From a virus (lineage: Duplodnaviria > Caudoviricetes): a stretch of 53,703 nucleotides of DNA. Location: IMG/VR virus record IMGVR_UViG_3300036719_001675, positions 1 through 53,703 of that record; one strand, written 5' to 3'. Position numbers and translations under genes: made by a program. This document shows, in pieces, positions 8,788-35,996 of this stretch. Every line of letters begins with the position of its first letter. The stretch's first letter is position 1. The notes under the pieces are model-generated. The model was not told the DNA's origin, did no database searches, and worked only from the letters and a program-made list of their open reading frames with translations.

Positions 8788-9342
8788 ATGAATAAGCCAA
8801 CCGAAAAAAAGATCAACCCAAAACAGAAAGAGAGTAAGCCCATGACACCCGAAGAAATTGAAGCCCGTGAAGACGCTGAATATGAAGCACTCACTGAAGA
8901 ACAGCGTGTGCTTTATTGCGATGCAAATGAAGAAGGTAAGGATCACGAAGAATGTATGTTTTATGCACTCAACACGCCAATTGACTTTGAAGTAGTTGAC
9001 AGTGATGAACTTACAAAACTTGCCGAAGAAGCACTCGTTGCCGAAGGCTTGGTCAAATTGGCTAAGGCAGTTATTGCTAAAGAACCAGTTGCTCCTAAAG
9101 TCGCTGTTCCTAAGACTGCAAAACTTTTGCCAAGTGAACATGAACAAGGTGCTCTTGTTGTAGTTGACATGACTGATCCGAATACGATCAACGAAGATAT
9201 CGCAGAACTCAATGAAAGCGAAGATGTCAAGAAGGTGGCAGAAAAAGTTTCACGGGTTCGCAAAACTCTTCCGAAGACCAGTGGCAATGCACCTAAGCAG
9301 GTTGCCAAAGTATCAACGGCACGACGAAAGCCAACACGATAG
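8788..9342 (+). CDS. Hypothetical protein (second in-frame start at 8842)
   Basis: Two tandem (C)AACCCAA-SD-ATG cassettes in frame. Confidence 0.75.
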   Translation: MNKPTEKKINPKQKESKPMTPEEIEAREDAEYEALTEEQRVLYCDANEEGKDHEECMFYALNTPIDFEVVDSDELTKLAEEALVAEGLVKLAKAVIAKEPVAPKVAVPKTAKLLPSEHEQGALVVVDMTDPNTINEDIAELNESEDVKKVAEKVSRVRKTLPKTSGNAPKQVAKVSTARRKPTR

Positions 9343-21592: not shown

Positions 21593-21866
21593 CTTAGCGT
21601 CATGCAAAGGTCAGACAGTTAAGTTTTTTAGGCATACTTGTTCACTCAGATGCAACACACACCCACAAGGTTGTGATAGAGTCGCTACAGTTAGACACTG
21701 TAGAAATACCTGTCTGACTTGCCCCGTTCTAGAACATTGCAGAATATGGGCGATCAGCACAAATTTAATTTATGGGTTCGCAGGCGGTATGTCTGAGAGC
21801 GAAAGAGAAACATTCAAGACTATGTTGGAGGAAGAAAATGGAAGAATTCCTGTTCAGTCAGACTGA
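21558..21866 (+). CDS. whiB: Second, atypical WhiB-family protein
   Basis: WFNLASCKG...CLTCPVLEHC...YGFAGGMSESER; extra Cys/His insert. Confidence 0.8.
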   Translation: MDNSLSVGEWFNLASCKGQTVKFFRHTCSLRCNTHPQGCDRVATVRHCRNTCLTCPVLEHCRIWAISTNLIYGFAGGMSESERETFKTMLEEENGRIPVQSD

Positions 21867-23187
21867 GTTTGTGCCAGTTAAGAAATTGAAGGCATACGGT
21901 AAGAACCCACGAAAGGGTAATGTTCGTGCTATTGCAGAGTCACTTGCTACGAACAAGCAATACCGACCTATTGTCGTTCAAAAAAGCACTAATCAAATTC
22001 TTGCTGGAAACCATACATGGCAAGCGGCTAAGTCTCTTGGTTGGGATAAGATCGCTGTCGTTTATGTTGATGTAGATGATGAACACGCAAAGAAAATCGT
22101 TCTCGCAGACAACCGAACCAACGACTTAGCAGAATATGATGATCGTATTCTTTCAGAATTGCTAACAAGCCTTGAGACAATCAGTGGCACTGGCTATACC
22201 GAATCTGACATGGATTCAATCATGCAATCAATCAGCACAAGCATGATGGACATTGAAGACGCTGGAGCACAACTAGACGAACGGGCAAGATTAGCGGCAG
22301 ACCCATTTGCTGGCGGTATTCCTCTTGACGATGATGATGAAGATGATGACTTAGAAGCAGTATCTACTGAAGAAGTAGAAGACACGCTTGAAAACAAAAC
22401 CAGCGAACTTGCTGGAGTTGTTGAACTGGCAGAAGCAAAAACTTTTCCAGGTTGTGGCGCATGGGATTTTCCTCCAATGATTCCTGAAATGATGATTGAT
22501 GAATTGCCGTATAATCTGCGTACATGGGCAGGAAGCGCCACTAGAGATATTGACCATGATGGGCATTGGCTGTACAACTGGGGAGTAGATAGCACTTCAG
22601 GTATGCAAGACCTAAGTAAAGTAATGCTTTCGTTTTACACTCACGATGAATACTTTGACCGATGGTGGGAAAACACTTCTACTTATACTGCAAAACTTTT
22701 GAACTCTAGGGTCAAGTACGCAATCATGCCTAACTACACTTCTGGCGGTATGCCCAAAGCAATCTCTATTCTTCAAAACTACAAATCATGGTATGTTGCT
22801 AGGTATTTGCAAGAGGCTGGTATCAAAGTAATGCCAGATATGGAATGTCGCCCTGAACCAGAGTTTGTTCAAGCGTGGAAGAAATGTATGCCTAAGTCAA
22901 TCCCGTTTATGGCAGTTCAATTACAAAACCTTTTCACAAGTTCACGAACTGGCACTAGAGCAACAGAAGAAGATTGGCGAAATGCAGTTACTGAGACTTG
23001 TGATGGGCAAATTAAAGGAATGGATATTGGCAATATCCTTGTTTATGCACCAACCACTAAGTGGGATATGATTCAAGACTCATGGTCTAGAAAAGACATT
23101 AAATTGCACTTCTTCCCAACACGAATTGAACTCTTAGCAGCACGATCAAAAGTTCGGGGTGCAGAAAAAGAAGCGAGAGGCTTTTGA
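21838..23187 (+). CDS. ParB/Srx N-terminal domain + acidic linker + DUF4417-like domain
   Basis: NPRKGNV..IAESL...PIVV..ILAGNHTWQAA..LADNR; C-terminal FYTHDEYFDRWW...PNY...YLQEAGIKVMP. Confidence 0.75.
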   Translation: MEEFLFSQTEFVPVKKLKAYGKNPRKGNVRAIAESLATNKQYRPIVVQKSTNQILAGNHTWQAAKSLGWDKIAVVYVDVDDEHAKKIVLADNRTNDLAEYDDRILSELLTSLETISGTGYTESDMDSIMQSISTSMMDIEDAGAQLDERARLAADPFAGGIPLDDDDEDDDLEAVSTEEVEDTLENKTSELAGVVELAEAKTFPGCGAWDFPPMIPEMMIDELPYNLRTWAGSATRDIDHDGHWLYNWGVDSTSGMQDLSKVMLSFYTHDEYFDRWWENTSTYTAKLLNSRVKYAIMPNYTSGGMPKAISILQNYKSWYVARYLQEAGIKVMPDMECRPEPEFVQAWKKCMPKSIPFMAVQLQNLFTSSRTGTRATEEDWRNAVTETCDGQIKGMDIGNILVYAPTTKWDMIQDSWSRKDIKLHFFPTRIELLAARSKVRGAEKEARGF

Positions 23188-24359: not shown

Positions 24360-25790
24360 GTGGCAAGCGATGACAAGGGCAAAGCAAAAGGCGTATTCAC
24401 AGAGGCTGGTGTAACTGGTCTTAGGCGTAGTGGTGGATATGTTCACGAAGAATTCTTGCCTCAACTGGCAGGGTATCGTGCAATTCAGGTGTACCGTGAA
24501 ATGCAGGATAATGACCCTGTAATTGGTGCAATTTTATACGCAATTGACAAACTCGTTCGTCAAGTGGCATGGCGTGTTCAGCCAGCCTCAACAAAACTTG
24601 AAGATCAAAAAGACGCTAAGTTTCTTGAATCGTGTCTAGGTGACTTGAATGTTGCTTGGGAAGACACAATCAGTGAGATCATGTCCATGCTTGCCTATGG
24701 TTGGTCGTTTCACGAAATTGTCTATAAGAAGCGCAATGGTTATACGAGTGACACAACGAAGACTTCTAAGTACAACGATGGAATGATCGGTTGGCAGAAG
24801 TTCCCAATTCGCTCACAAGAAACCCGTGACCGCTGGGTGTTCGCAGACAATGGCGACATTCTTGGTATGTGGCAGTCAGCCTCTCCAACATACTTCCCAA
24901 CATATATTCCAATTGAAAAGGCTTTACTGTTCCGAACGACAGTTTCAAAGAATAACCCAGAGGGTCGTTCAGTATTGCGTAACGCCTATCGCCCTTGGTA
25001 TTTCAAGCGCCGAATTGAAGAAATTGAAGCAATCGGTGTAGAGCGTGACCTTGCTGGATTCCCGATTATGTATGTTGACCCAGACATCATGCGTGAAGAT
25101 GCCTCTGGTATGAAAAGCACTGTATTTCAGGACTATAAAGATGTAATCATTAACATTCGTCGGGATCAGCAAGAGGGAATGATTCTTCCTGCTATGTACG
25201 ACGAAAATAACAACCTCATGTACAGACTTGAATTGCTATCTGCTGGCGGTGGTCGTCAATTTGATACAGACCGAATCATTACTCGCTATGACCAACGAAT
25301 TGCTACGACAGTGTTGGCAGACTTCATTCTGTTAGGTCAAGACATTGGCGGTTCATATGCACTGTCATCAGATAAGACGAGCCTGTTCGCTTTGTCTATC
25401 CGAACTTGGCTTGAAACGATTAAGACCGTTATGAATCAGCAGGCTATCCCACGCTTGTTTAGAGTCAATGGTATTGATACAGAAAAGTTGCCTGAACTTG
25501 TATATGGCGACATTGAAACGCCACCTCTTACCGAAATTGGCACATTCATTCAACAATTGGCAGGTGCTGGCGCACCATTGTTCCCTGATGACGCTCTTGA
25601 AAACCACCTTCGCAAAATGGCACACTTGCCCGAACGCCGTGAAGAATCAGCAGGCGTTGTTCAAGACGCTCAAGAAAAACTTTCTGGTCAAGATCAAGTT
25701 GACGCTTCCAAAGAAGCCAAGAATAATAAGAACGCAAAGAAACAAGAGACAGATCAAGAAGTCGCCCAAAGCATGACCACTAAGGAATAG
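24360..25790 (+). CDS. Portal protein (DUF935/Mu gp29-like)
   Basis: YREMQDNDPVIGA, NPEGRSVLR..YRPWYFK, IGVERDLAGFP, GSYALS; first gene of the head module. Confidence 0.9.
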   Translation: MASDDKGKAKGVFTEAGVTGLRRSGGYVHEEFLPQLAGYRAIQVYREMQDNDPVIGAILYAIDKLVRQVAWRVQPASTKLEDQKDAKFLESCLGDLNVAWEDTISEIMSMLAYGWSFHEIVYKKRNGYTSDTTKTSKYNDGMIGWQKFPIRSQETRDRWVFADNGDILGMWQSASPTYFPTYIPIEKALLFRTTVSKNNPEGRSVLRNAYRPWYFKRRIEEIEAIGVERDLAGFPIMYVDPDIMREDASGMKSTVFQDYKDVIINIRRDQQEGMILPAMYDENNNLMYRLELLSAGGGRQFDTDRIITRYDQRIATTVLADFILLGQDIGGSYALSSDKTSLFALSIRTWLETIKTVMNQQAIPRLFRVNGIDTEKLPELVYGDIETPPLTEIGTFIQQLAGAGAPLFPDDALENHLRKMAHLPERREESAGVVQDAQEKLSGQDQVDASKEAKNNKNAKKQETDQEVAQSMTTKE

Positions 25791-25792
25791 TC

Positions 25793-27244
25793 ATGCCTGC
25801 TACCTCAAACTTTCGTGGCAAGAAACTTCTTCAAGCCATTACTAATCTGATGGATAGCCTTGAAAGCAGATACCGTTCTGTTTTCTTGGAGACTATTGAG
25901 AACATTACAAATAGCCCTGATATAGCCGAAATTATTAGGGATATTCGCTTAGGAAATATCACCACAATTGACAACGCTACCCTCGCAAGAATTCAGGGCG
26001 TTCAACTGAACACATATGACCTAACGGTTGCCTCAAGGCAGGCTATGGCTTCAGGTGGCAAGATAACGGCTAAGACGGTAGGGCTTGAAGGTAAGTTCAA
26101 CCTACAGAACCCAAGAGCAATTGCTGCAGCCAGAACTCTTAGTGATGAACTCGTTGCCAATTTAAGTAAAACTGTTACAAAGAATCTGACCGACATTATT
26201 ACTGACGGTGTGTCAGGAACTGATTCTCTTTCGGAAACTATTCGCCGTATTAAAGATGAAATTGGATTAACGACACAACATTCAGCGGCAGTAAAAAATT
26301 ATCGCAAGAACCTCATTCAAACTGGAATGGATAAGGCGAAAGCATTAGCCCAATCAGAAAAATATGCGAAGAGATTGCTTAAATATCGTGCCGAAACAAT
26401 TGCACGAAGTGAAATAGCAATGGCGGTTAATAAAGGTCAGGCAGAGTTCTGGAAACAGATGAAAGATGACGGTTCTATCCCACCTACTGCAATGAGAATT
26501 TGGATTGCAGAAATGGATAGTAAAACTTGCGACATATGTGCGCCTTTGAATGGAGAACTAGCACCAATTGATGGTGCTTGGTCTACTGGTCTAGGGTTCT
26601 TTGACATACCGTATGCTCACCCTCGCTGTCGTTGTACTTCAGGGCTTGTATTCCCCAACAAAATCACCAAAAACGACCCAATTGGTTATGAGCAATGGGT
26701 TATTTCAAAAGGCGATTATGTAGGTCACCCATTCAGAGGTAATCAATGGACTAAAGTTGGTGGTGCAGGTGCTGGCGCTAAGAATGAAGCAAATGCCTCT
26801 CAAATTGATTGGAATGTTCTTTACGACAACGATGTTCCTGGGGAATTAGAGTCATATCTCGGAGATAATGCCGTAAAGTCCCTTGAAAATTGGATATTTA
26901 ACGCTAAATACCCAACTCAATGGCTTAAAGAAGTAGCAGGAAAAGACTATGAATATGAAGAGCATTATCAGACTCTTCAAGGTTGGTTAAAAGAAGCCAA
27001 TTTCCCCGATACGGTAACTGTTATTAGGCAGGGTACGCCAGACCCTAGGGGAGACATACGAAGTGGTTCTGCTATGGAAGGCTGGACAGGTGGCGCTATT
27101 GACGCTCAACATCATTATGGTTCTGACCGAAAAGTTTATGTAAGCAAAGTGCCAAGAAAAAATATCATTGGTATTGGTCAGATAGAAGAAGGAGAACTCT
27201 TCTATAAAACCGAAGGCGTAACAGTGACGGAACTGAAAAGGTAG
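25793..27244 (+). CDS. MuF/SPP1 gp7-like minor head protein with GHPFRGNQW tag and C-terminal ART-like domain
   Basis: RAETIARSE, TCDICAPLNG, HPRCRC; then ISK-GDYVGHPFRGNQW; then VIRQG..SGS..EEGE. Confidence 0.88.
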   Translation: MPATSNFRGKKLLQAITNLMDSLESRYRSVFLETIENITNSPDIAEIIRDIRLGNITTIDNATLARIQGVQLNTYDLTVASRQAMASGGKITAKTVGLEGKFNLQNPRAIAAARTLSDELVANLSKTVTKNLTDIITDGVSGTDSLSETIRRIKDEIGLTTQHSAAVKNYRKNLIQTGMDKAKALAQSEKYAKRLLKYRAETIARSEIAMAVNKGQAEFWKQMKDDGSIPPTAMRIWIAEMDSKTCDICAPLNGELAPIDGAWSTGLGFFDIPYAHPRCRCTSGLVFPNKITKNDPIGYEQWVISKGDYVGHPFRGNQWTKVGGAGAGAKNEANASQIDWNVLYDNDVPGELESYLGDNAVKSLENWIFNAKYPTQWLKEVAGKDYEYEEHYQTLQGWLKEANFPDTVTVIRQGTPDPRGDIRSGSAMEGWTGGAIDAQHHYGSDRKVYVSKVPRKNIIGIGQIEEGELFYKTEGVTVTELKR

Positions 27245-27256
27245 TAGGGTAGGGGT

Positions 27257-27538
27257 ATGAGCAAACCAGACTATTCATTCGTTGATGTGACCGACATTGT
27301 TCCGCCTGCCGCATCGGACTTATGGTCAACAATGGTCCCTCATCATGGGATTGTCATTATTTCAGGCTTACGACCCGAAGGGGGAGAGGCTATCCATGTC
27401 ATTCATAACACTGACGCTCCAGCGTGGACTCTGATAGGAATGTTAGAAGCAGTTAAATCTGACCTTTTATATATGTTTCAGCAGGTTGAATACAGGAGAA
27501 ACGAAGATGGCAACGAAGAAGAATACTACGAAGATTGA
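27257..27538 (+). CDS. Hypothetical protein
   Basis: ORF directly after the MuF extension; candidate immunity gene by position. Confidence 0.65.
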   Translation: MSKPDYSFVDVTDIVPPAASDLWSTMVPHHGIVIISGLRPEGGEAIHVIHNTDAPAWTLIGMLEAVKSDLLYMFQQVEYRRNEDGNEEEYYED

Positions 27539-27788
27539 TAACAAAATTGTCTTAGTCGTTTGGCATGATGCTCATGCAGATTCTTCAGGAACATGGGTTG
27601 AAAAAGAAAATATCGGCAATAACCCATACATTGTAGAGACTTGTGGGTTCTTGATTGAAGATGTAAAACCTAACCATGTAACCATTGCACAGACGATCTC
27701 ACATGACGGAATGTATGACCACATTATTCACATTCCCGACGCTATGGTCGTATCAAAGAAAACGATCAGCACTAAAGGCGATCATTGA
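27507..27788 (+). CDS. Conserved phage hypothetical protein
   Basis: AGGAG SD; VVWHDA..W..ETCGFL..IP pattern. Confidence 0.7.
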   Translation: MATKKNTTKIDNKIVLVVWHDAHADSSGTWVEKENIGNNPYIVETCGFLIEDVKPNHVTIAQTISHDGMYDHIIHIPDAMVVSKKTISTKGDH

Positions 27789-27823
27789 TTGCTCTAGCAA
27801 CGCCAATACATTTAATGTAATCT
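27789..27823 (+). promoter_or_regulatory. Putative late promoter (protease operon)
   Basis: TTGCTC-TAGCAA-N17-TAATCT. Confidence 0.55.
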
Positions 27824-27846
27824 GAACCTAAGTAACAGGAGATGCA

Positions 27847-28371
27847 ATGGAAGCACAGATTACAAAAATAGATGATGATAAGCGCCTCGTATTTGGTTGG
27901 GCTTCAATTATCAAAGATGTAGAAGGAAAAGTCCTACTTGATCGCCAAAACGACTACATTGACTCTGAAGAAGAATTAGAAAAAGCCGCCTATTCGTATG
28001 TTCTAAATTCCCGTGATGGTGGAGAAATGCACATTCGTAAGGGTGTTTCAACAATGGTTGAATCGGTTGTTTTCAGCAAAGAAAAGCAAGAGGCAATGGG
28101 TATCCCTTCTGGCTCAATGCCCGTTGGTTGGTGGATTGGTTTCCGAGTCAATGATGAACGGGTATGGGAAGAAGTCAAAAAGGGTCAGTATTCAGGATTC
28201 TCTGTACACGGGACTGGTCAACGAAACCAAAACATTCTAAAAGACGGTGAATATACCGAAATTGAAAAGAATGATGAAGTGCAGGAAGAGAAATTTGACG
28301 GTGTTCGTGTTTCTAAAAAACTTTTGATGACATTGACCAAGGCACAAAAGAACAAGAGCAAAGACAAGTGA
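27847..28371 (+). CDS. XkdF-like prohead serine protease
   Basis: KIDDDKRLVFGWAS, DRQND, GEMH, VES, GWWIG, GFSVHG. Confidence 0.88.
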   Translation: MEAQITKIDDDKRLVFGWASIIKDVEGKVLLDRQNDYIDSEEELEKAAYSYVLNSRDGGEMHIRKGVSTMVESVVFSKEKQEAMGIPSGSMPVGWWIGFRVNDERVWEEVKKGQYSGFSVHGTGQRNQNILKDGEYTEIEKNDEVQEEKFDGVRVSKKLLMTLTKAQKNKSKDK

Positions 28372-28376
28372 TCTAA

Positions 28377-31091
28377 GTGGGAATTTCAAAAGACAACCCG
28401 ACTTCTTCTGATGTTCATGTAGACGCAATTATGGGAGCAGTTAAGAATTCTGCCATGACAAGTAAAAAGCGACGCTTGAAGAAAAAGCGTATGGCTATGG
28501 ATATGTCTCTTAAGAAGGGTGACTTTGTAGGACACCCATTCCGAGGTAACCAGTGGACTAGGGGAATGGGCGTAAGTCGTATGGCAGGGCGATCAGCACC
28601 AAAAGACCCAACCGCAGGTGCTCAAGGTGGTGGAAGTGGCGTAGTTAACCCAACAGTTAAAATTACCAATGATAGACCTCTTGGTTTTCGTGAAGCAGGA
28701 TTGCCAGCACACGGAAGAAAAACAGGAACGGCTGTTGACGATCTCTTAACTATGGGCGCTAAAGATAGTACACAAGCGTCAGAAGGTCGTTCTTTATACA
28801 GAGACACTCAAAGTATGCTTGACACTGTTCACCGAAATTTAACGCAAGTACAAAGTAATGTTCTTTCTCTTAAGCGTAGACCAGACCAACCAGATAGCGA
28901 ACTCTTAGGAATTCGTAACAGAAGTCTATTGGCTGAAGTAAATTCAATTCAGGCTAAGTTACGGGCGCAAGAAGCAGAGTCTTTGGCTACAGCAGCGCGT
29001 GGTTCAAGAAAAATTCAAGCACAAGACTATGGCGCAAGTTCAGAACTTCAAGCACAACAAGCAGGAGCAGTTAATAGTGCTGCAAAAAAGGCACTATATC
29101 TTGGCGATGTAAACAAGCGGTTAGACTCATTCTTAAAAGAATTTAAAGGTAGCCCTGACGCTTTATTTTCTAAAGAATCAGCAGAAGTAACTACTAAGAG
29201 AACAAAAGGGGCTTCCCCCACTAATGAAGTAACACGCAAGTTACCTTCTGCTACTGTTACTCACCCAGACCTTGAAAATCCTTCTTCGCCAATGTGGAAG
29301 CAAAAAGTTCTAGGAGAAATGAAGTCTGTTTCTGCTACTGTTCAATCAGGTGGCGAAACTTATAGGGTTGACGGTATTCACCCAATCATTGCAGGAGTAT
29401 CACCAAAAGTTAAGTTTACCCCTGCGCTTATTAAAGAATTACAAGGTTTGTCTTTTGCTCAACAATCAATGATTACATCTGGTCATACAAGCACTGCCTC
29501 AATGATGGCAGAAATTAAAGCAATTAAAGCGAAAAAAGTTAAAGCAGGTTCTAATGCAGACAATGGAGAAGGTTTCAGCCTGACTACTGACCTTATGCTT
29601 AAACATAAAACAAAAGCACGAAAAGACGAAGAGTGGGATTCTTTAACTGAACCAGAAAAAAGAAGGTATGTAGACGCACCTGAGCATATGTCTCACGATG
29701 TTGCTATGCAATTAGCAATAGGTGTAAGGGGCGCTTTTGACCAACATTGGACACCGTTATCTGCTGGAGAAGTTGTCGTTAGTAGAACTGTTAGTAAGCC
29801 ATATGAAGCAAGTGCTCAAGAACTGCTTGGTAAGGGCGACTTCATTGGTCACCCATTTCGTGGTAACCAATGGGTTAGAGGTCGTGGTGGAATGGGTATT
29901 GGGGGAATGGTTGGTCGTGCCGCACCTAAAGACCCAACGAGTGGTTTTCAAGGTGGTGGCAGTGGAAAAGTAGCAAAGCCAAAGAAAACAAAAGAGGAAA
30001 AAGATGCGGAATGGGAATCACTAAACAATAAAGGTAAGATCATATATAGCGAGGCTCCTCAAGATTACAGCCACGATCAAGCGATGATGTTGGCTCGTAT
30101 GCCTCGCCGTGTTGTTAATAGGGGTCTTAGTGAAGCACAAACAAGGGAATACTGTAGCCTTTCACCAAGAGAAGGTGCTCACTATGAATACGCCAGTGCA
30201 AGCCGTTCTCATGCCAGCATTATGGCGGATATTAAAGCAGGGAAACCAGTTCGTGAACCTGCCGCTGGAATGAAGAGAGCAACCCCAGCAGACATTGCCC
30301 GTATCAGAAAAGAAGGTGTAGTTGTTGCTCCTGCATGGTCTGAAGTTCATGTGGCTAAGTCAAAATCTAGCAGGCTACAAGTGACAGGAATTGATGAGAA
30401 GGGGCGTGTTCAATCTGGCTATTCCAAAGCACACAAAGAACAGACTTCTAAAGCAAAGTTTGCTCAAGTAGCAGATGTTGAAAAAACACTGACTAAGTTA
30501 GATTCAGCACTAAAGCGTGATGTAGCGGCTGGAAAAGACGAGGCAGTTGCTTGTTTATTGATTCGCAAGATGGGCTTGAGACCAGGAGGTACTGGCGATA
30601 CTGGTGGTGCAGAAACAGCGTTTGGTGCTACTACTCTTCAACGCCGTCATGTTACCGTTCGTGGCAATACGACTACATTTGAATTCACAGGTAAAAAAGG
30701 CGTGAAGATTAAACTCGTTTCTAGAGACCCTGAAATTGCTAAGGCAATGACTGCACAGTTGGCAAAAGGTAAGCGTGGCGGTGACTCCCCACTATTTGAA
30801 TCTTCGGCAACTAAAGTGAATCAGTATTTGAAGCAGAACACTAGCCAAGACTTTAGCCTCAAAGACTTACGAACTGCATTGGCAACACGACAGGCTTTTG
30901 CATTGCTAAGATCAGCACCAGCACCGACTACGATGAAAGAAGCAAGAGCATTGCGTATGTCTATCGGTAAAGAAGTGGCACAGTTACTAGGAAATACGCC
31001 GAACATGGCACTTACCTCTTACATCAACCCCACGATCTTTGCTGGATTAGTCAAGCAATTCGGACCGCTTACAGGAAAGGCTAAATCGTGA
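28377..31091 (+). CDS. Putative internal virion polyprotein: capsid-like N-peptide, two GHPFRGNQW units, C-terminal type IB DNA topoisomerase
   Basis: TopIB motifs PAWSEV, LQVTGIDEKGRVQ, GLRPG, GATTL, FTGKKG, KDLRT, LGNTP..SYINP (about 30270-31091). Confidence 0.88.
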   Translation: MGISKDNPTSSDVHVDAIMGAVKNSAMTSKKRRLKKKRMAMDMSLKKGDFVGHPFRGNQWTRGMGVSRMAGRSAPKDPTAGAQGGGSGVVNPTVKITNDRPLGFREAGLPAHGRKTGTAVDDLLTMGAKDSTQASEGRSLYRDTQSMLDTVHRNLTQVQSNVLSLKRRPDQPDSELLGIRNRSLLAEVNSIQAKLRAQEAESLATAARGSRKIQAQDYGASSELQAQQAGAVNSAAKKALYLGDVNKRLDSFLKEFKGSPDALFSKESAEVTTKRTKGASPTNEVTRKLPSATVTHPDLENPSSPMWKQKVLGEMKSVSATVQSGGETYRVDGIHPIIAGVSPKVKFTPALIKELQGLSFAQQSMITSGHTSTASMMAEIKAIKAKKVKAGSNADNGEGFSLTTDLMLKHKTKARKDEEWDSLTEPEKRRYVDAPEHMSHDVAMQLAIGVRGAFDQHWTPLSAGEVVVSRTVSKPYEASAQELLGKGDFIGHPFRGNQWVRGRGGMGIGGMVGRAAPKDPTSGFQGGGSGKVAKPKKTKEEKDAEWESLNNKGKIIYSEAPQDYSHDQAMMLARMPRRVVNRGLSEAQTREYCSLSPREGAHYEYASASRSHASIMADIKAGKPVREPAAGMKRATPADIARIRKEGVVVAPAWSEVHVAKSKSSRLQVTGIDEKGRVQSGYSKAHKEQTSKAKFAQVADVEKTLTKLDSALKRDVAAGKDEAVACLLIRKMGLRPGGTGDTGGAETAFGATTLQRRHVTVRGNTTTFEFTGKKGVKIKLVSRDPEIAKAMTAQLAKGKRGGDSPLFESSATKVNQYLKQNTSQDFSLKDLRTALATRQAFALLRSAPAPTTMKEARALRMSIGKEVAQLLGNTPNMALTSYINPTIFAGLVKQFGPLTGKAKS

Positions 31092-32332
31092 TTGAATTTA
31101 CTCCACGCACAGAAGAAGAAGAAGCACAACTTACCGCAGACATGAAGGCTTTCTTTGAGACTATTCAGGATAGTGACATTGAAGTTGATGAATGGTTAGG
31201 CGATGAATACAGTGAAGAAGACGATGGAGAGAATGGCGAAGAACTAGGCGACATTGGCGAAATGGTTGGTATCACCAAAGCCCAACCATTGAAAGACCCT
31301 AAAGGTGGTCTCACTGCCGCTGGTCGTGCTAAGTACAATCGTGAAACTGGTTCTAACTTGAAGCCTGGAGTTACTGGTGCGGCAGATACGCCTGAAAAAA
31401 TGCGCCGTAAAGGTTCTTTCCTTACTCGCTTCTTCACAAACCCAAGCGGTCCAATGGTTAATGATAAAGGCGAACCAACACGCCTAGCATTATCAGCAAA
31501 CGCATGGGGAGAACCAGTTCCGAAGAATCGTAGCGATGCCGCCAAACTTGCCGCAAAGGGAAGAAGCCTCTTGGCTAGATACGAAAATGTAAAAAAAGGC
31601 GATTATGTAGGACACCCTTTTAGGGGAAATCAGCACACTCGTGTTGCTATTGCCGCAAGAACAAAAGAAATAATGGGGCTTTTAACTAAAAAAGCAGGGG
31701 AGCAAGTTGCAAATGGTCTAAAGCCTTTAGTGGAAGCAGCAGTAGAAGAATTTCAGATAAATGGTGCTTCAAATGAACCTCTTCTAGTCAATGGCAAAAA
31801 AGTTTCTATGGGCGGTCAAGTAGTTACTACCGCTGGTTTTTTAGACCTGCTTGTTAATGAGGTAGGAATGAAAGCAGTGTTTGGTCGTGATTTTTCAGCA
31901 GGTGATTTCAAAGAAGGCGAGAAGTTCCTTAAAAAAGGTGGCGGTCTTACCCAATGGTTTGACGAGAAGTGGGTTGACATTTCACGACCAAAAGAAGGCG
32001 GTGGCTACGAACCTTGTGGTCGCCCTGATGCTCATAAAGGTCATTATCCTAAATGTGTACCTGCCGCCCGTGCAGAAAGAATGACTCCTGAACAAATTAA
32101 GTCTGCCATTAGTCGTAAGCGTCGTGCAGAATCAAAAACGGTACGCCAAGACAAAAAGCCAATTATGGTTGAGACCATTAAAAAGGAAAATATTCCTGTA
32201 AATACTGAACTTTACAACAAAGTAAAGGCAGAGGCTAAAGCAAAATTTGATGTTTACCCATCTGCTTACGCCAATGGTTGGTTGGTTCAAGAGTACAAGC
32301 GTCGTGGTGGCAAATATAAAACTTCCGAATAA
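31088..32332 (+). CDS. Putative internal virion polyprotein (DUF6321-like, GHPFRGNQH unit, DUF5872-like modules)
   Basis: KDPKGGLTAAGR..NLKPGV; GLTQWFDEKWVD..CGR..YPKCVP; LYNKVKAEAK..PSAYANGWLVQEYKRRGG. Confidence 0.8.
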   Translation: MIEFTPRTEEEEAQLTADMKAFFETIQDSDIEVDEWLGDEYSEEDDGENGEELGDIGEMVGITKAQPLKDPKGGLTAAGRAKYNRETGSNLKPGVTGAADTPEKMRRKGSFLTRFFTNPSGPMVNDKGEPTRLALSANAWGEPVPKNRSDAAKLAAKGRSLLARYENVKKGDYVGHPFRGNQHTRVAIAARTKEIMGLLTKKAGEQVANGLKPLVEAAVEEFQINGASNEPLLVNGKKVSMGGQVVTTAGFLDLLVNEVGMKAVFGRDFSAGDFKEGEKFLKKGGGLTQWFDEKWVDISRPKEGGGYEPCGRPDAHKGHYPKCVPAARAERMTPEQIKSAISRKRRAESKTVRQDKKPIMVETIKKENIPVNTELYNKVKAEAKAKFDVYPSAYANGWLVQEYKRRGGKYKTSE

Positions 32333-32367
32333 TTTGGGAGAGTAATAAAAAAATATTTGTCAAATAC

Positions 32368-32396
32368 TTGTACTGACCTGTTCTAGTTGGTATCTT
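32368..32396 (+). promoter_or_regulatory. Putative promoter for the scaffold/capsid operon
   Basis: TTGTAC-N17-TATCTT with TG extension and an upstream AT-rich tract. Confidence 0.5.
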
Positions 32397-32405
32397 TGCT
32401 CTGTA

Positions 32406-33293
32406 ATGAATCGGTTGACTGATATGGAATTTGACGAGATTAGTCTTGTTACTCGCCCTGCCAATCAATTGAGTAAAGTGGTACTTTTCAAAAGCGACGA
32501 ACAACAGGAGCAATCAGTGACTACTGAAGTTGACAAAGGTTACGGAAAAATGGGCATGAAGAAGAAAATGAAGCCCATGACCGACGAAGAAATTATGGCT
32601 ATGTCCGAAGAGGAAATTGCTGCTATGGAAGACGAAGAGCCTATGAAAAAGGGTTCGGGTATGAAGCGTCGTGGTCGCCCAGTTCGTAAAGACGACGACC
32701 TTGATGAAGAAACCTCAGAAGATGTTATTGATCTTCCGAACGAAGTTTTTGAATACATTTCAGCACTTGAATCTGCAAATGCAGAACTCCTTGACCAAGT
32801 TGAAAAACTGGCTAAAAGCGTTGAAGTTGTTGCCGAAGAAGAAGACATTATGAAGTCGGCAGACCCTCAGATCGTGGCACTCGTCAAGTCTTTTGAAGAA
32901 CGAGCAAAAGCCGCAGAAACCATTGCTAAGTCGGAACGAGATTTCCGTCTTGAGCGTGAATTTGTTAGCAAGGCTTCTACCCTTAACGCATTGCCAATTG
33001 AATCTGATTCATTCGGTAAGGTTCTCAAGGGTGTTGCCGAATCAGTTTCTAGTGAACAGTTCAAGGTGCTTTGGGAAGTTCTCAGTGCCGCTAACTCGGC
33101 GCTTGCCGAAAGCAACCTTTTCACTGAAGTGGGCAAGTCGGGTGACTTTGACAATGATGGAGCAACTAGCCCCATCAACAAAGCCGCAGAACGAATTCTT
33201 GCTACCACACCAAATCTGACTCGCGAGCAGGCAATTGCCAAGGCTTTAGAATCAGACCCCAACCTTTACACAGCCTACTTACGAGGTAACTAA
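32406..33293 (+). CDS. Capsid scaffold protein with N-terminal protease-like EISLV..PAN peptide; internal start at 32517
   Basis: Helical and acidic; many [ILVM]xK[SAGD] sites; AGGAG + GTG at 32517 in frame. Confidence 0.8.
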   Translation: MNRLTDMEFDEISLVTRPANQLSKVVLFKSDEQQEQSVTTEVDKGYGKMGMKKKMKPMTDEEIMAMSEEEIAAMEDEEPMKKGSGMKRRGRPVRKDDDLDEETSEDVIDLPNEVFEYISALESANAELLDQVEKLAKSVEVVAEEEDIMKSADPQIVALVKSFEERAKAAETIAKSERDFRLEREFVSKASTLNALPIESDSFGKVLKGVAESVSSEQFKVLWEVLSAANSALAESNLFTEVGKSGDFDNDGATSPINKAAERILATTPNLTREQAIAKALESDPNLYTAYLRGN

Positions 33294-33295
33294 TC

Positions 33296-33688
33296 ATGGC
33301 AATTCAAGCGTCACAACCACTTAAAATTTCACTTGTTGCTGGAGCAGACCTTTCTGCCAAGCAGTTTTACTTCGTGAAGTTGAACTCTTCAGGTCAGGCA
33401 GTCGTTTGTGCGGCTGTTACTGACATTCCTGTAGGAATTCTTCAGAACACGCCTGCCTCTGGTTCAGTTGCAGAAGTCACTGTTGTCGGTGTTAGTAAGG
33501 TTTCCTCAGATGCAGGATTGACCGCTGGCAACCAAATTGGTACGAGTGCAGATGGTCAAGCGGCTGCTTATACCGCTGGCACTGACACCACGAAGTACAT
33601 CGTTGGGCAAATGCTCACGACTACTGGAGCAGCCGCTGTAATCGGTACTGCTGTTATTAACTGCGTCGCTCCTAGCCGAGCCGCCTGA
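33296..33688 (+). CDS. Capsid cement/decoration protein (DUF2190-like)
   Basis: AGADLS..QFYFVKL, GILQN, position between scaffold and MCP. Confidence 0.8.
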   Translation: MAIQASQPLKISLVAGADLSAKQFYFVKLNSSGQAVVCAAVTDIPVGILQNTPASGSVAEVTVVGVSKVSSDAGLTAGNQIGTSADGQAAAYTAGTDTTKYIVGQMLTTTGAAAVIGTAVINCVAPSRAA

Positions 33689-33702
33689 TTAGGAGTTAAA
33701 CC

Positions 33703-34662
33703 ATGCCTCAGCCCACATCAACACAGGTTCATGTTGACGCAATCTTGACTAACATCTCGGTTGCTTTCATTCAAGACCAAGGCAATTTCATCGCTAACCA
33801 AGTTTTCCCGACTGTGCCAGTTGAGAAGCAGAGCGACAAGTATTTCAAGTATGCAAAGGGTGACTGGTTCCGTGATGAAGCAGCGCTTCGTGCTCCTGCA
33901 ACCGAATCAGCAGGTTCTGGCTATGGCTTGACCACTGACACCTATAGCACTCTCGTCTATGCTTTCCACAAGGACATTGACGATCAGGTTCGTGCTAACA
34001 GTGACTCGCCGTTGAACCCTGATCGTGACGCTACGCAATTCGTTACCCAGCGTATGCTTCTTCGTCAGGAAATTGACTGGAGTGCCAAGTATTTCACCAC
34101 TGGCATTTGGGCAACCGACAAGGTAGGTTCAACTGACTTCACGCAGTGGAGCAACTACACTTCGTCTGACCCGATTGAAGACATTGAAGCAGGTAAGAGT
34201 ACAATGTTGACAAGCACTGGCTTCATGCCGAACACTCTTGTTCTTGGCTACGATGTGTTCCGTCAATTGCGCCACCACCCTGATGTAGTTGACCGTATCA
34301 AGTACACCTCGTCTGAAGTGCCTGCCGAAGGTATCCTAAGCCGTTTGTTCGGTGTTGATCGTGTTCTCGTTACCCGTGCAATCAAGAACAGTGGCGCTGA
34401 AGGTGCTTCGGATTCGTTTGCTCAGGTTCATGGCAAGAACGCCGCCTTGTACTATGTTGCACCATCACCTGGCTTGCTTACTCCTTCGGCTGGTTACCAG
34501 TTCGCATGGCGTGGCGTAAGCGATGGAATGGGTCAGAACATCGGAATTACTCGCTTCCGTCGCCCAGAACTTCGTGCAGACCGCATTGAGGCTCAAATGG
34601 CTTGGGATTACAAGGTCGTTTCGTCTGATCTTGGGTACTTCTTCAGCAGTTGCGTAGCCTGA
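33703..34662 (+). CDS. Major capsid protein (HK97 fold)
   Basis: HVDAILTNISV, FPTVPV.KQSDKY, PNTLVLG; size and position. Confidence 0.9.
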   Translation: MPQPTSTQVHVDAILTNISVAFIQDQGNFIANQVFPTVPVEKQSDKYFKYAKGDWFRDEAALRAPATESAGSGYGLTTDTYSTLVYAFHKDIDDQVRANSDSPLNPDRDATQFVTQRMLLRQEIDWSAKYFTTGIWATDKVGSTDFTQWSNYTSSDPIEDIEAGKSTMLTSTGFMPNTLVLGYDVFRQLRHHPDVVDRIKYTSSEVPAEGILSRLFGVDRVLVTRAIKNSGAEGASDSFAQVHGKNAALYYVAPSPGLLTPSAGYQFAWRGVSDGMGQNIGITRFRRPELRADRIEAQMAWDYKVVSSDLGYFFSSCVA

Positions 34663-34677
34663 CCTTAGGAGGTCGTA

Positions 34678-35097
34678 ATGAATCGTTTTACTAAAGGTCT
34701 AGGACTTTTCGGTGGGATTGTCTCATCTGGTCCTAGTCGTAACTTAGGTATTCATTCAGTGAAGCGTACTTCGGCAACTGTTGCTGATGGTGCTTCAATG
34801 GTTGCTACTGCTGCTCACATTGTCACGAACACAGTTGTCAGTGCTACGCCTACTACTGGTCGTAACTTGACAACTGCTACTGGTGCTCAAATCATTGCTT
34901 TGTTGCCTGACGCTAATGTTGGCGATTGTACGGAATTCACAGTCGTTAACCTTGCCGCCGCTACTCATGCAATTACTTTGATTGCTGGTGCTTCGGGAGT
35001 AACTATTGTCGGTTCGGCAGTTGTTTCTGCCGCTTCGTCTGGTACTTTCTTGGTTCGTTACGACTCAGCCACAGCGGTTACTTTCATTCGTAAGTAA
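34678..35097 (+). CDS. Putative minor structural/decoration protein
   Basis: AGGAGG SD; Ala/Thr/Val-rich beta protein after the MCP. Confidence 0.65.
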   Translation: MNRFTKGLGLFGGIVSSGPSRNLGIHSVKRTSATVADGASMVATAAHIVTNTVVSATPTTGRNLTTATGAQIIALLPDANVGDCTEFTVVNLAAATHAITLIAGASGVTIVGSAVVSAASSGTFLVRYDSATAVTFIRK

Positions 35098-35102
35098 TCA
35101 CC

Positions 35103-35996
35103 ATGAAAGACCTAGAAGGCTTACGCTTACAGGCGCTTTTATCAATTGCCAAAGGAGACTATGACGGTCACCCTTTTCGTGGCAATCAGTGGACTCGTAG
35201 GGCTAGTCGTGGTCGTGCTGCCCCCAAAGACCCTACTGCTGGCTCTCAAGGTGGCGGTTCTGGTAAAGCCAAACGGCAAGTAGATGAAATAAAAACCGAC
35301 ATTCAACGGTTTGGTGGTGGTGGAGGTATGGCTGCAACGATGTCTCGCCTTGATGCTCTTGATGCTCAGGCTAAAGCATTGTTATCAAAGCCTGCTGTCA
35401 AGATTGACAGTTCTCTTCCAAAAGAATCGCAAGAAGTATTAACAGCCCTAAATAATAGGTTTACTGAGAGAGTTAAGCGTTTTCACCCTAAAGATATACC
35501 TGATATTCAACAAAAAGTTCTTGAAGGTATAGAAGAGGGTAAAAAATGGGTTTCTACAGTTGGCGGTAACGAAGGTTATGTTAAAACTGGTAAAAAAAGA
35601 GCCGACACAGAAATGGATAGCGCTCTTAGCCATCAAGTTGATCGTTTTGCTAAATTCTTAGGAATTCGTGCTGGAATAGAAATTGCATCAGCAAAAAGTG
35701 GTAGCAAATCTTCAACTCGCAAACCTTCAACTCAAAACCCTACAACTCCTAAGCCTGGTTCAGCAGGGTCAACCAAAGAAATTCTAAGGCGAGAAGCCCG
35801 AAGAATATTAGCCGAAGCGCCAACTGCTCCTAAACCTGCTAAAGCGCCAACTGCACCTAAGCCAACTAAGAAGAAGACTAAAAAAGAAAAAGACGCTGAG
35901 TGGGAAGTTCTTACCGCTAAACAAAAGAAAATTTACGAAAAAGCGCCAGCAGATATGTCTCACGACGACGCTATGGCTCTTGCTTTGGGCTTGTAA
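35103..35996 (+). CDS. Putative internal virion protein with GHPFRGNQW tag
   Basis: IAK-GDYDGHPFRGNQW, APKDPTAGSQGGGSG and EW..SHDDAMALA shared with the 904-aa protein. Confidence 0.8.
   Translation: MKDLEGLRLQALLSIAKGDYDGHPFRGNQWTRRASRGRAAPKDPTAGSQGGGSGKAKRQVDEIKTDIQRFGGGGGMAATMSRLDALDAQAKALLSKPAVKIDSSLPKESQEVLTALNNRFTERVKRFHPKDIPDIQQKVLEGIEEGKKWVSTVGGNEGYVKTGKKRADTEMDSALSHQVDRFAKFLGIRAGIEIASAKSGSKSSTRKPSTQNPTTPKPGSAGSTKEILRREARRILAEAPTAPKPAKAPTAPKPTKKKTKKEKDAEWEVLTAKQKKIYEKAPADMSHDDAMALALGL

What the first reader, a model, noticed from the sequence alone, without database searches (positions are those of the whole stretch)
26708..35192. A repeated peptide tag (K-GD[YF]xGHPFRGNQ[WH]) marks cargo in four head-module proteins
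Seen: five copies at 26708-26749 (MuF), 28515-28556 and 29832-29873 (904-aa protein), 31595-31636 (414-aa protein) and 35151-35192 (297-aa protein). GHPFRGNQ is invariant while codons vary synonymously, so selection is on the peptide. Each copy follows hydrophobic-x-K (ISK, LKK, LGK, VKK, IAK) and precedes a basic or Gly-rich linker and a different payload. I saw it in no ORF outside the head module. Established: T4 internal proteins use a capsid-targeting sequence removed by the prohead protease, and MuF proteins carry toxin extensions. Inference: cleavage after Lys exposes a common N-terminal GDxxGHPFRGNQW that serves as a packaging or ejection signal, giving a modular protein-delivery system. 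I know of no functional description of this tag.
Basis: partly seen in the sequence, partly recalled or inferred. Interest (0 to 1): 0.92.

Follow-up and report, generated by a model that had tools for sequence, protein, structure and literature searches.

The report
Conserved peptide label on phage capsid cargo
A short, nearly invariant peptide sits at the front of each cargo module in this phage's head proteins and in thousands of proteins of uncultured phages, probably combining a cutting site for the head protease with a label whose function is still unknown.

Summary
Five GHPFRGNQ copies lie at the stated coordinates, with varying synonymous codons, and there are no others in six frames.

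The motif is not private to this phage. A profile of it finds 2,513 protein clusters, with up to nine copies per protein. No Pfam or NCBIfam model covers it in the proteins scanned, and letter searches of the paper library find nothing.

The anatomy is [hydrophobic]-x-K | G-D-x-x-G-H-x-F-[RH]-G-N-Q-[WYH], then a flexible linker, then a payload. 225 of 242 copies have more than 100 residues downstream in the same ORF.

It marks junctions after MuF, after Mu-type portals, after the XkdF protease itself, and between effector domains of polyvalent proteins.

The residue before G-D is uniform within a contig. It is K or R in 31 of 32 contigs with an XkdF protease, and Leu in the lineage with a Mu-I protease. 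Five genes start with Met directly before G-D.

Best reading: a prohead-protease site plus a retained N-terminal label. Cleavage and packaging are inferred, not shown. Interest is high.

The parts
24360..25790 (+). Mu-type portal protein (476 aa)
   Evidence: Pfam Portal_Mu 5.5e-31 and phrog_113 5e-90.
25793..27244 (+). MuF / SPP1 gp7-type head protein (483 aa): MuF domain, then tag, then a C-terminal payload of unknown family
   Evidence: Pfam Phage_Mu_F aa 167-282; TIGR01641. AlphaFold2: aa 10-290 confident, helix 296-305, aa 307-350 below pLDDT 50, C-terminal domain pLDDT about 50-70. Close homologues carry ADP-ribosyltransferase payloads at the same junction.
26708..26749 (+). Tag copy 1 (K-GDYVGHPFRGNQW), about 35 residues after the MuF HPxCxC motif
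27847..28371 (+). XkdF-type prohead serine protease (174 aa), the candidate enzyme for the site before each tag
   Evidence: Pfam Peptidase_S78_2 2.5e-22. His62 and Ser119 are invariant in 21 aligned homologues. In relatives the same reading frame continues through DUF6496 into a tag.
28377..31091 (+). 904-aa two-unit cargo protein: leader, tag, about 400 aa, tag, type IB topoisomerase
   Evidence: Pfam Topoisom_I aa 685-877. PDB 2f4q (bacterial topoisomerase IB) 3e-18. Tags at aa 52 and 491.
28515..28556 (+). Tag copy 2 (K-GDFVGHPFRGNQW)
29832..29873 (+). Tag copy 3 (K-GDFIGHPFRGNQW), ahead of the topoisomerase IB unit
31088..32332 (+). 414-aa protein: DUF6321, tag, middle domain, DUF5872
   Evidence: Pfam DUF6321 aa 69-140 and DUF5872 aa 370-411. 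The same DUF6321-then-tag junction is in P0295.
31595..31636 (+). Tag copy 4 (K-GDYVGHPFRGNQH)
32406..33293 (+). Scaffold-like protein (295 aa). Its N-terminus resembles the segment that follows the XkdF domain in protease-scaffold fusions.
   Evidence: phrog_13547. The 'EISLV..P' segment is also seen after XkdF in L066 and L029.
33703..34662 (+). Major capsid protein (319 aa)
   Evidence: phrog_1005 4.6e-97. Homologues in 14 of 35 tag-bearing long records.
35103..35996 (+). 297-aa protein of no known family: 16-residue leader, tag, linker, body
   Evidence: No Pfam, PHROG or NCBIfam hit. Its leader resembles a leader class seen in other phages.
35151..35192 (+). Tag copy 5 (K-GDYDGHPFRGNQW)

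Best explanation
The tag is a two-part junction element of phage head-associated cargo proteins.

Part 1 is a short site at the end of the upstream piece: a hydrophobic residue, any residue, then Lys in this phage. The phage's own prohead protease (here the XkdF-type serine protease at 27847-28371) would cut immediately before the Gly of G-D.

Part 2 is the invariant core G-D-x-x-G-H-x-F-[RH]-G-N-Q-[WYH] plus a flexible linker. It stays on the N-terminus of the downstream module as a common label.

In this window the cut would:
- free the MuF C-terminal payload from MuF;
- split the 904-aa protein into a leader, a middle unit and a topoisomerase IB unit;
- split the 414-aa protein after DUF6321;
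- trim a 16-residue leader from the 297-aa protein.

Shown: the anatomy, the distribution, the position at module boundaries and the link with protease type.

Inferred: the cleavage itself, the presence of these proteins in the capsid, and the job of the core. My leading guess for the core is a docking signal for incorporation, retention or ejection of cargo.
For: (1) Sharp boundaries. In 161 non-redundant copies, information content is confined to positions -6 to +16. Position -6 is V/I/L/F/A in 78%, position -4 is K in 60%, then G 95% and D/E 99%.

(2) Directionality. Of 242 copies with a downstream stop, 225 have more than 100 residues after the tag, 14 have 41-100 and 3 have 10 or fewer. 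102 ORFs have the first tag within 70 residues of the first start codon.

(3) Junction use.
- MuF homologues: 13 of 21 with more than 120 residues after HPxCxC have a tag after that motif; 0 of 38 with shorter tails do.
- XkdF-DUF6496-tag-ParB-like family: the 59 best-scoring homologues (41-98% identical) all keep the tag.
- Prophage portals: Portal_Mu, then tag, then PBECR nuclease.
- Up to 6 copies in one ORF of the loci and 9 in one database protein. Effector domains sit in the same proteins: ADP-ribosyltransferase, DarA_N, InPase, LPD3, DUF3626.

(4) Protease link.
- XkdF is present in 17 of 35 long tag-bearing records and in 7 of 9 that are at least 90% complete.
- HK97-type S78 passes its cut-off in 0 of 35 and ClpP in 0 of 35.
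- Across 99 contigs, 31 of 32 XkdF-positive ones have K or R before G-D. Of the 32 contigs with another residue there, XkdF was seen in only 1, an Asn contig; in none of those with L, F, D, M, S, A or V (Fisher p = 6e-6, not corrected for relatedness).
- The residue is uniform within a contig: 13 of 13 K, 8 of 8 L, 7 F plus 1 L.
- The Leu lineage (G004, G007) has the same capsid and portal families but a Mu-I type protease instead of XkdF.

(5) Two separable parts. At the same orthologous position, K is followed either by G-D-x-x-GH or by G-G-P-G-S-G-x3-GH, or one residue is inserted. The K-to-core distance therefore varies between 4, 5 and 9 residues.

(6) Five genes begin with ATG directly before G-D, with no upstream in-frame start and purine-rich stretches upstream. 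The core therefore needs nothing upstream. Removal of the initiator Met before Gly (established knowledge, recalled) would give the same N-terminus as the proposed cut.

(7) In two AlphaFold2 models the Lys ends a helix, and the core plus linker fall below pLDDT 50, as expected for an exposed linear motif.

(8) The protease has invariant His62 and Ser119.
Against: - No experiment or proteome shows cleavage or packaging. The only cultured phage found with the tag is Xanthomonas phage Rb1, in a gene its depositors call 'internal head protein'.
- The link between protease and preceding residue could reflect shared ancestry. The Mu-I case is a single lineage, and most contigs without XkdF are fragments.
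- Two complete records (G010, G031) have no recognised protease of the five families tested: XkdF, S78, ClpP, Mu-I by Pfam.
- XkdF does not imply tags: MT835491.1 has none in the 24 kb examined.
- In larger phages some tagged genes lie 7-100 kb from the head genes.
- Conserved N-terminal leader classes are not explained if the leader is simply discarded.
- Three copies sit at a C-terminus with no payload.
- The core occurs with unrelated portal and capsid families (phrog_776/777 in G009), so no partner can be named.
- 8 of 21 extended MuF homologues lack a tag by my pattern.
Confidence: 0.5

Rival explanations
1. The whole stretch of about 20 residues is only an extended recognition and cleavage site for the prohead protease, like the junctions of viral polyproteins. 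The core would be prime-side recognition and have no role of its own afterwards.
For: Tags separate domains in polyproteins. They follow the protease domain itself in the same ORF in at least 14 ORFs. XkdF is enriched, and classical S78 and ClpP are absent. The region is predicted disordered.
Against: Twelve or more invariant residues on one side of a cut is far more than known prohead-protease sites need (recalled). Five genes start with Met directly at G-D, so they keep the core although nothing is there to cut. The core is unchanged between lineages with different protease families and different residues before G-D. The distance from Lys to the core varies.
Confidence: 0.2
2. Leader plus tag is a removable propeptide, like the capsid-targeting sequence of the T4 internal proteins. 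It takes the payload into the procapsid and is then cut off downstream of the core, in the flexible linker.
For: The tag is N-terminal to its payload in 239 of 242 cases. It often follows a short conserved leader and is followed by a flexible linker. Precedent: the first 30 residues of P1 DarB suffice to send a reporter into the capsid (abstract of PMC9024508). The T4 capsid-targeting sequence is recalled.
Against: No conserved site exists downstream of the core; the positions after +10 are only Gly-rich. The conserved, lineage-specific, protease-linked residue lies upstream of the core. After MuF, portal or XkdF, a cut downstream would leave the tag on the structural protein and serve no targeting purpose for the payload.
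Confidence: 0.12
3. The core acts after injection, inside the host. It would bind a widely conserved cellular component or set the stability or location of the effector, and it has no part in capsid assembly.
For: Payloads are effector-like: ADP-ribosyltransferases, GNAT-like domains, ParB-type nucleases, topoisomerase IB, zeta-toxin-like kinase. Some tagged genes lie far from the head genes. The core is the same across unrelated capsid families.
Against: The tag also follows the protease, and in L029 and L066 it precedes a scaffold-like coiled-coil piece that is not expected to be injected. No cellular protein with the motif emerged: only 16 of 50 matches in 185,579 species genomes have the motif context, and 8 of the 10 such ORFs scanned carry phage portal, Dar-type or PBECR domains.
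Confidence: 0.1
4. The motif is mainly a recombination joint that lets payload cassettes be swapped, like the conserved junction motifs of polymorphic toxins.
For: Orthologous MuF and XkdF proteins carry different payloads after the same junction. The two flavours of the tag interchange at one position.
Against: Copies differ at synonymous sites: 26-34 of 42 bases are identical and the longest exact runs are 5-17 bases. That is poor substrate for homologous exchange. Strict amino-acid invariance across thousands of clusters points to a protein-level function.
Confidence: 0.05

Closest known systems
Capsid-targeting sequence of the phage T4 internal proteins, cut by the gp21 prohead protease (recalled from the literature, not read here)
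   Same: A short N-terminal signal on proteins that are packed in the head and injected. The cut site has a hydrophobic residue two places before a charged residue, made by an assemblin-fold prohead protease.
   Different: There is no sequence similarity. In T4 the signal is removed, whereas here the conserved core lies after the proposed cut and would stay on the cargo. The T4 signal is lineage-specific, whereas this core is invariant across many phage lineages. Here it also occurs inside polyproteins.
N-terminal packaging signal of phage P1 DarB and the Dar internal head proteins (PMC9024508: abstract and passages read)
   Same: An N-terminal peptide of 30 residues suffices to send a foreign protein into the capsid. 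Dar-type domains (DarA_N, DarA_C, ddrB-ParB, InPase) occur in tag-bearing proteins.
   Different: The three tag queries did not hit P1. The P1 signal has no reported conserved motif shared between proteins or between phages.
Polyvalent proteins of phages and conjugative elements (Iyer et al. 2017, PMC5512222: passages read by term search)
   Same: Many tag-bearing proteins are such proteins: 2 to many effector domains, fused to MuF or portal, encoded beside virion genes, with processing proposed.
   Different: That paper attributes processing to embedded metallopeptidases. Its main text has no occurrence of 'GNQ' or 'linker'. Its supplementary alignments could not be seen. The tag as a shared junction element is not described there.
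MuF polymorphic toxins of temperate phages (Jamet et al. 2017, PMC5576092: term search of main text)
   Same: A MuF N-terminal domain followed by a variable C-terminal toxin or effector. The window's MuF protein and its ADP-ribosyltransferase-bearing homologues have this layout.
   Different: The main text has no occurrence of 'conserved motif', 'linker', 'cleavage', 'cleaved' or 'junction'. The tag is also found outside MuF proteins.
Cargo-loading peptides of encapsulins (recalled)
   Same: A short conserved peptide joined by a flexible linker to very different cargo enzymes, directing them into an HK97-fold shell.
   Different: Encapsulin peptides are C-terminal, have another sequence, and are known to bind the shell protein. 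Here the partner is unknown and the capsid-protein families differ between tag-bearing phages.

Membership tests
T4-type capsid-targeting sequence | N-terminal position on proteins packed in the head | tested here: inconclusive
   The tag is N-terminal to its payload in 239 of 242 copies, but it is often internal to a precursor. Presence in heads is not tested.
T4-type capsid-targeting sequence | Removed from the mature protein by the prohead protease | not testable with these tools
   The conserved site lies upstream of the core, which suggests the core is retained. No proteomic data exist.
T4-type capsid-targeting sequence | T4 gp21-family (Peptidase_S77) protease in the genome | not tested
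   I searched XkdF, S78, ClpP and Mu-I, not PF03420.
Polyvalent proteins (Iyer et al. 2017) | Several unrelated effector domains in one polypeptide, with families such as LPD, DarA_N, ART-PolyVal, PBECR, ddrB-ParB, InPase | tested here: met
   L114 has InPase, DarA_N and LPD3. L039 has DUF3626 and an ADP-ribosyltransferase. ART-PolyVal, PBECR1 and InPase occur among the 97 profile hits. L171 has InPase, DarA_N and ddrB-ParB. The window's own 904-aa protein has only one known domain, topoisomerase IB.
Polyvalent proteins (Iyer et al. 2017) | Encoded beside virion or transfer genes and delivered with the DNA | tested here: inconclusive
   Adjacency to portal, MuF, protease and capsid genes holds in the window and in several records. 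Delivery is not testable.
MuF polymorphic toxin (Jamet et al. 2017) | N-terminal MuF domain with a variable C-terminal toxin domain | tested here: met
   MuF spans aa 167-282 and is followed by a 160-residue C-terminal domain of no known family. Homologues carry ADPrib_exo_Tox.
MuF polymorphic toxin (Jamet et al. 2017) | Cognate immunity gene next to the toxin | not tested
   The small ORFs at 27257-27538 and 27486-27788 were not examined.
XkdF / Peptidase_S78_2 prohead protease (for ORF 27847-28371) | Match to the family model above its cut-off, with conserved catalytic His and Ser | tested here: met
   79.7 bits against a cut-off of 24. His62 and Ser119 are invariant in 21 sequences. That these are the catalytic pair is inferred by analogy with HK97 gp4 (recalled).
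Encapsulin cargo-loading peptide | Binds the inner face of the shell protein | not tested
Encapsulin cargo-loading peptide | C-terminal position after a flexible linker | tested here: not met
   The tag precedes its linker and payload. Only 3 of 242 copies are C-terminal.

The most novel reading that the evidence does not exclude
The core G-D-x-x-G-H-x-F-x-G-N-Q-[WYH] is a portable, pan-phage cargo address. A linear peptide of about 13 residues would, on its own, direct any downstream protein into the capsid (or out through the tail). It would work across phages with different portals, capsid proteins and proteases, making it the phage counterpart of encapsulin cargo-loading peptides. The upstream protease site would then turn polyproteins into sets of individually labelled effectors.
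Probability: 0.3. Interest if true: 0.9.

Novelty: new variant of a known kind. Interest (0 to 1): 0.78.

Why it matters
Phages are known to inject proteins along with their DNA, but the rules that select those proteins are worked out only for a few model phages, and each rule looks lineage-specific.

Here one short peptide marks the start of cargo modules in at least 2,513 protein clusters. It is almost entirely from uncultured phages and carries no annotation. If the reading holds, three things follow:
- a simple sequence rule to predict the injected effector set of unknown phages (topoisomerase IB, ADP-ribosyltransferases, nucleases, kinases, anti-restriction domains) from sequence alone;
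- a predicted cleavage specificity for the unstudied XkdF protease family;
- a candidate portable tag for loading foreign proteins into phage capsids.

It would also show that polyvalent proteins are built from labelled units rather than being arbitrary fusions.

Tried and rejected
Binding test. Complex prediction with the XkdF domain (aa 1-140, alignment A2) and a 40-residue tag segment (alignment A1) scored 0.01 against a mark of 0.32: no verdict. It counts neither for nor against binding.

Cis-docking test. AlphaFold2 models of an XkdF-DUF6496-tag-ParB protein and of the window's MuF protein leave the tag below pLDDT 50, so no docking onto XkdF or MuF is predicted. In one search the protease domain itself was poorly modelled, so that model says little.

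Annotation libraries. No Pfam, PHROG or NCBIfam model covers the tag in the proteins scanned. The ESM Atlas gave no usable feature hit, and structural rows were below TM 0.5.

Literature.
- Letter searches for 12 motif strings found only unrelated peptides.
- Searches on XkdF and prohead-protease cleavage found no study of XkdF specificity.
- Term searches inside PMC5512222 and PMC5576092 found no mention.

Cultured phages.
- tblastn with three tag segments against 50,697 records gave one hit, Xanthomonas phage Rb1. By my estimate, variant copies would score below the E-value limit, so absence is not shown.
- Relatives by capsid protein (RDJL Phi 1, Arthrobacter phage Kovu) have no tag in the 25 kb examined.
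- The best XkdF match, MT835491.1, has none in the 24 kb examined.

Species genomes. The scan of 596 Gb gave 50 matches. My arithmetic expects about 35 by chance, and 34 of the 50 loci indeed lack the G-[DE] context.

Protease in other lineages. I looked for a protease in the Phe lineage (G009) and a second Leu lineage (G030) and found none among the 10 ORFs scanned. My iterated XkdF profile found nothing in 7 fetched regions, even at E = 10.

Rejected ideas. Self-cleavage at the Asn and isopeptide or metal-binding roles were considered, but nothing tested here bears on them.

No random set of viral contigs was searched, so the enrichment of XkdF has no measured baseline.

Full report
**1. The observation**

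Each is preceded by a hydrophobic residue two places before the Lys: VISK, SLKK, LLGK, NVKK, SIAK.

The copies lie on the + strand in four ORFs:
- 25793-27244 (483 aa);
- 28377-31091 (904 aa, two copies);
- 31088-32332 (414 aa);
- 35103-35996 (297 aa).

A six-frame scan with exact, two-substitution and relaxed patterns finds no further copy. GHPFRGNQ is the most repeated 8-mer of the window. In 50 shuffles no 8-mer occurred more than twice.

The codons vary synonymously; Arg alone uses AGA, CGA, CGT and AGG. The DNA of the copies shares only 26-34 of 42 bases. The repeat is therefore real, is not chance, and is kept at the protein level.

**2. The setting in the window**

The window is a whole IMG/VR virus record of 53,703 bases, rated 100% complete. 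Its two ends repeat each other over about 266 bases.

The gene order is:

| Coordinates | Gene |
|---|---|
| 24360-25790 | Mu-type portal |
| 25793-27244 | MuF |
| 27257-27788 | two small ORFs |
| 27847-28371 | XkdF-type serine protease |
| 28377-31091 | 904-aa protein |
| 31088-32332 | 414-aa protein |
| 32406-33293 | scaffold-like protein |
| 33296-33688 | small head protein |
| 33703-34662 | major capsid protein |
| 34678-35097 | small ORF |
| 35103-35996 | 297-aa protein |

The payloads behind the tags differ:
- an unassigned C-terminal domain on MuF;
- a type IB topoisomerase behind the second tag of the 904-aa protein (Pfam 3.2e-21; PDB 2f4q 3e-18);
- a middle domain and DUF5872 behind the tag of the 414-aa protein, with DUF6321 in front;
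- a body of no known family in the 297-aa protein.

**3. The motif is a large, unannotated family**

Scans and searches:
These hold 181 in-frame copies in 148 ORFs.
- Allowing variation, the same 0.98 Mb holds 285 copies of G-H-x-F-x-G-N-Q-[WYHF]. Pro is replaceable by many residues and Arg mostly by His.
- A profile of 148 tag segments (A1) against 1.84 billion cluster representatives finds 2,513 proteins at E of 0.001 or better, 489 at 1e-10 and 100 at 1e-30. One protein has up to nine matched stretches. Single copies score near the threshold, so this is a lower bound.
- In the 5.8-billion-protein collection, 97 of the 8,000 scored candidates passed. None carries a functional name and four have an NCBI source.
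- No Pfam, PHROG or NCBIfam model covers the tag in the proteins I scanned.

Literature:
- Twelve motif strings searched in the paper library gave only unrelated peptides.
- The two most relevant papers have no occurrence of terms that would describe it in their main text. Their supplements could not be read.

Other collections:
- Among 50,697 GenBank phage records, three tag queries found one phage, Xanthomonas phage Rb1, in a gene deposited as 'internal head protein'. Variant copies would escape that search.
- In one genome for each of 185,579 species there were 50 matches where about 35 are expected by chance (my arithmetic). Sixteen loci have the proper context.
- Of the 10 such ORFs scanned with Pfam, four are Mu-type portals followed by the tag (two of them then carry a PBECR nuclease). 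Three are Dar-type polyvalent proteins, one has PBECR1 and two have nothing.

**4. Anatomy**

In 161 non-redundant copies, information is confined to positions -6 to +16:
- position -6: V, I, L, F or A in 78%;
- position -4: Lys in 60%;
- then Gly in 95% and Asp or Glu in 99%;
- two variable residues;
- the core;
- an aromatic residue or His;
- Thr, Val or Ser;
- a Gly-rich run.

The element is strongly directional. Of 242 copies with a downstream stop in the locus, 225 have more than 100 residues after the tag in the same ORF, 14 have 41-100, none has 11-40 and 3 have 10 or fewer. By contrast, very little is needed upstream: 102 ORFs have their first tag within 70 residues of the first start codon.

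Five genes start with ATG immediately before G-D, with no other in-frame start upstream and purine-rich stretches in front. By eye, their bodies look like ADP-ribosyltransferase-like and GNAT-like effectors.

The tag therefore belongs to what follows it, and the unit begins exactly at the Gly.

**5. It marks junctions**

*After MuF.* Among homologues of the window's MuF protein, 13 of 21 with more than 120 residues after the HPxCxC motif have a tag after that motif; in the closest ones it sits about 35 residues downstream. Of the 38 with shorter tails, none has one. The payloads behind it differ, and several are ADP-ribosyltransferases.

*After the protease.*
- An iterated profile found 24 ORFs with an XkdF domain in the loci and window. 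In at least 14 of them the same ORF continues into a tag.
- In the family XkdF-DUF6496-tag-ParB-like, the 59 best-scoring homologues (41-98% identical) all keep the tag. Overall, 78 of the 119 listed do.
- By eye, what follows the tag is a ParB-type domain, a P-loop kinase-like domain or a coiled-coil scaffold-like tail.

*After portals.* Seen in prophages of Verrucomicrobiota.

*Between effector domains.* Up to six copies occur in a 1,957-aa ORF. DarA_N, InPase, LPD3, ADP-ribosyltransferase and DUF3626 sit in tag-bearing ORFs.

**6. Two separable parts, and a link to the protease**

At one orthologous position, the Lys is followed by G-D-x-x-G-H, or by G-G-P-G-S-G-x-x-x-G-H, or by one extra residue. 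The distance from Lys to the core is therefore 4, 5 or 9 residues, while the hydrophobic-x-Lys pattern stays.

The residue before G-D is uniform within a contig (13 of 13 Lys, 8 of 8 Leu, 7 Phe plus 1 Leu, 5 Arg plus 1 Val) but differs between lineages.

Protease families in 35 long tag-bearing records:

| Family | Records with a match |
|---|---|
| XkdF | 17 of 35 overall; 7 of 9 that are at least 90% complete |
| HK97-type S78 | 0 over the cut-off, one weak match |
| ClpP | 0 |
| Mu-I type | 2 |

Over 99 contigs, 31 of the 32 with XkdF have Lys or Arg before G-D. Of the 32 contigs with another residue there, XkdF was seen in only one, an Asn contig, and in none of those with Leu, Phe, Asp, Met, Ser, Ala or Val (Fisher p = 6e-6).

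That p-value ignores relatedness, and many contigs are fragments.

The Leu lineage (G004, G007) shares the window's capsid-protein and portal families. It encodes a Mu-I type protease-scaffold instead of XkdF.

This pattern is what a cleavage site read by the phage's own prohead protease would show. A hydrophobic residue two places before the cut is also the rule for the T4 protease (recalled). The window's protease has invariant His62 and Ser119.

**7. Structure predictions**

In both AlphaFold2 models the Lys closes a helix:
- helix 296-305 in the window's MuF protein;
- helix 257-272 in the L005 protease fusion.

In both, the core with its linker falls below pLDDT 50. This fits an exposed linear motif. 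No docking in cis is predicted.

**8. What I conclude**

The best-supported reading has two parts: a protease site that ends the upstream piece, and an invariant N-terminal label kept by the downstream module.

The five Met-Gly-Asp genes support this. Removal of the initiator Met before Gly (recalled rule) would give the same N-terminus without a protease. The core is kept although there is nothing to cut.

What the label does is open. It occurs with unrelated portal and capsid families (phrog_776/777 in G009; Mu-type portal with a phrog_1005 capsid protein here). It also occurs with different proteases. Its partner is therefore not obviously one capsid protein.

Several observations fit poorly:
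- conserved leader classes;
- three C-terminal copies;
- tagged genes 7-100 kb from the head genes in large phages;
- 8 of 21 extended MuF homologues without a tag.

**9. Comparison with what is known**

*How it works.* It resembles the T4 capsid-targeting sequence and the N-terminal packaging signal of P1 DarB. For DarB, 30 residues suffice to load a reporter (PMC9024508). In layout it resembles encapsulin cargo-loading peptides (recalled).

*Membership.* Many carriers qualify as polyvalent proteins or MuF toxins, but the tag itself belongs to no described family that I could find.

I rate it a new variant of a known kind: a cargo signal with a processing site, unusual for its invariance and spread.

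**10. Limits**

- Nothing here shows cleavage, packaging or ejection.
- No random control set gives a baseline for XkdF.
- The co-variation rests on few independent lineages.

Noticed in passing
window 1-266 and 53438-53703: The two ends of the window repeat each other over about 266 bases, with a few mismatches. The record therefore looks like a complete genome with terminal redundancy or a circular assembly overlap, although IMG/VR classes it as linear.
   Followed up: partly
window 28330-28400: The XkdF ORF ends at a TGA, and the 904-aa ORF starts 5 bases later in another frame, right after a TAA. In relatives (L005, L083, L035) one ORF runs on from the same 'TKAQK' segment through a DUF6496-like stretch into a tag. 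This could be a gene fission, an assembly error or a recoding site.
   Followed up: partly
window 28596-28643, 29922-29969, 35220-35267: A second repeated peptide, A-P-K-D-P-T-[AS]-G-x-Q-G-G-G-S-G, follows three of the five tags. It was not found in any ORF of the 117 IMG/VR loci.
   Followed up: partly
window 29601-29732, 29976-30110, 35868-35993; weak copy near 8893-9018: A third repeated module of about 40 residues (basic run, E-W-[ED]-x-L, Y-x-x-A-P, M/Y-S-H-D-x-A-M-x-L-A) occurs twice in the 904-aa protein and at the very C-terminus of the 297-aa protein. The 297-aa protein thus looks like a paralogue of the first unit of the 904-aa protein. There is one weak copy in ORF 8788-9342, outside the head genes.
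   Followed up: partly
window 30273-31007: A type IB topoisomerase domain sits as the last unit of a tagged head-region protein. The closest solved structure is the Deinococcus enzyme 2f4q, and the poxvirus enzyme also matches (1.2e-5). A phage that may carry a topoisomerase IB in its particle would be unusual.
   Followed up: partly
window 32406-32500: The scaffold-like 295-aa protein begins with a segment (E-I-S-L-V-T-R-P-A-N) that directly follows the XkdF domain in protease-scaffold fusions of other contigs (L066, L029). The two cargo genes may have been inserted into a once continuous protease-scaffold gene.
   Followed up: no
window 21772-23187: A 471-aa protein with a ParB N-terminal domain and DUF4417 lies just upstream of the head genes, where a terminase might be expected.
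   Followed up: no
window 4780-4808 and 4837-4865: A 29-base exact direct repeat with 57-base spacing, in an early-gene region.
   Followed up: no
L169 (Akkermansia muciniphila assembly), L152, L156, L173: Prophage portals of Verrucomicrobiota carry the tag after the Portal_Mu domain, with Asn before G-D. In L156 and L173 a PBECR nuclease domain follows the tag.
   Followed up: partly
L176:2852-4852 (G007) and L177:5487-9944: The Leu-type lineage has a head region of about 32 kb between portal and capsid gene, filled with tagged ORFs, and a 667-aa Mu-I protease-scaffold. Within that stretch lies a 1,486-aa collagen-repeat tail-fibre-like ORF.
   Followed up: partly
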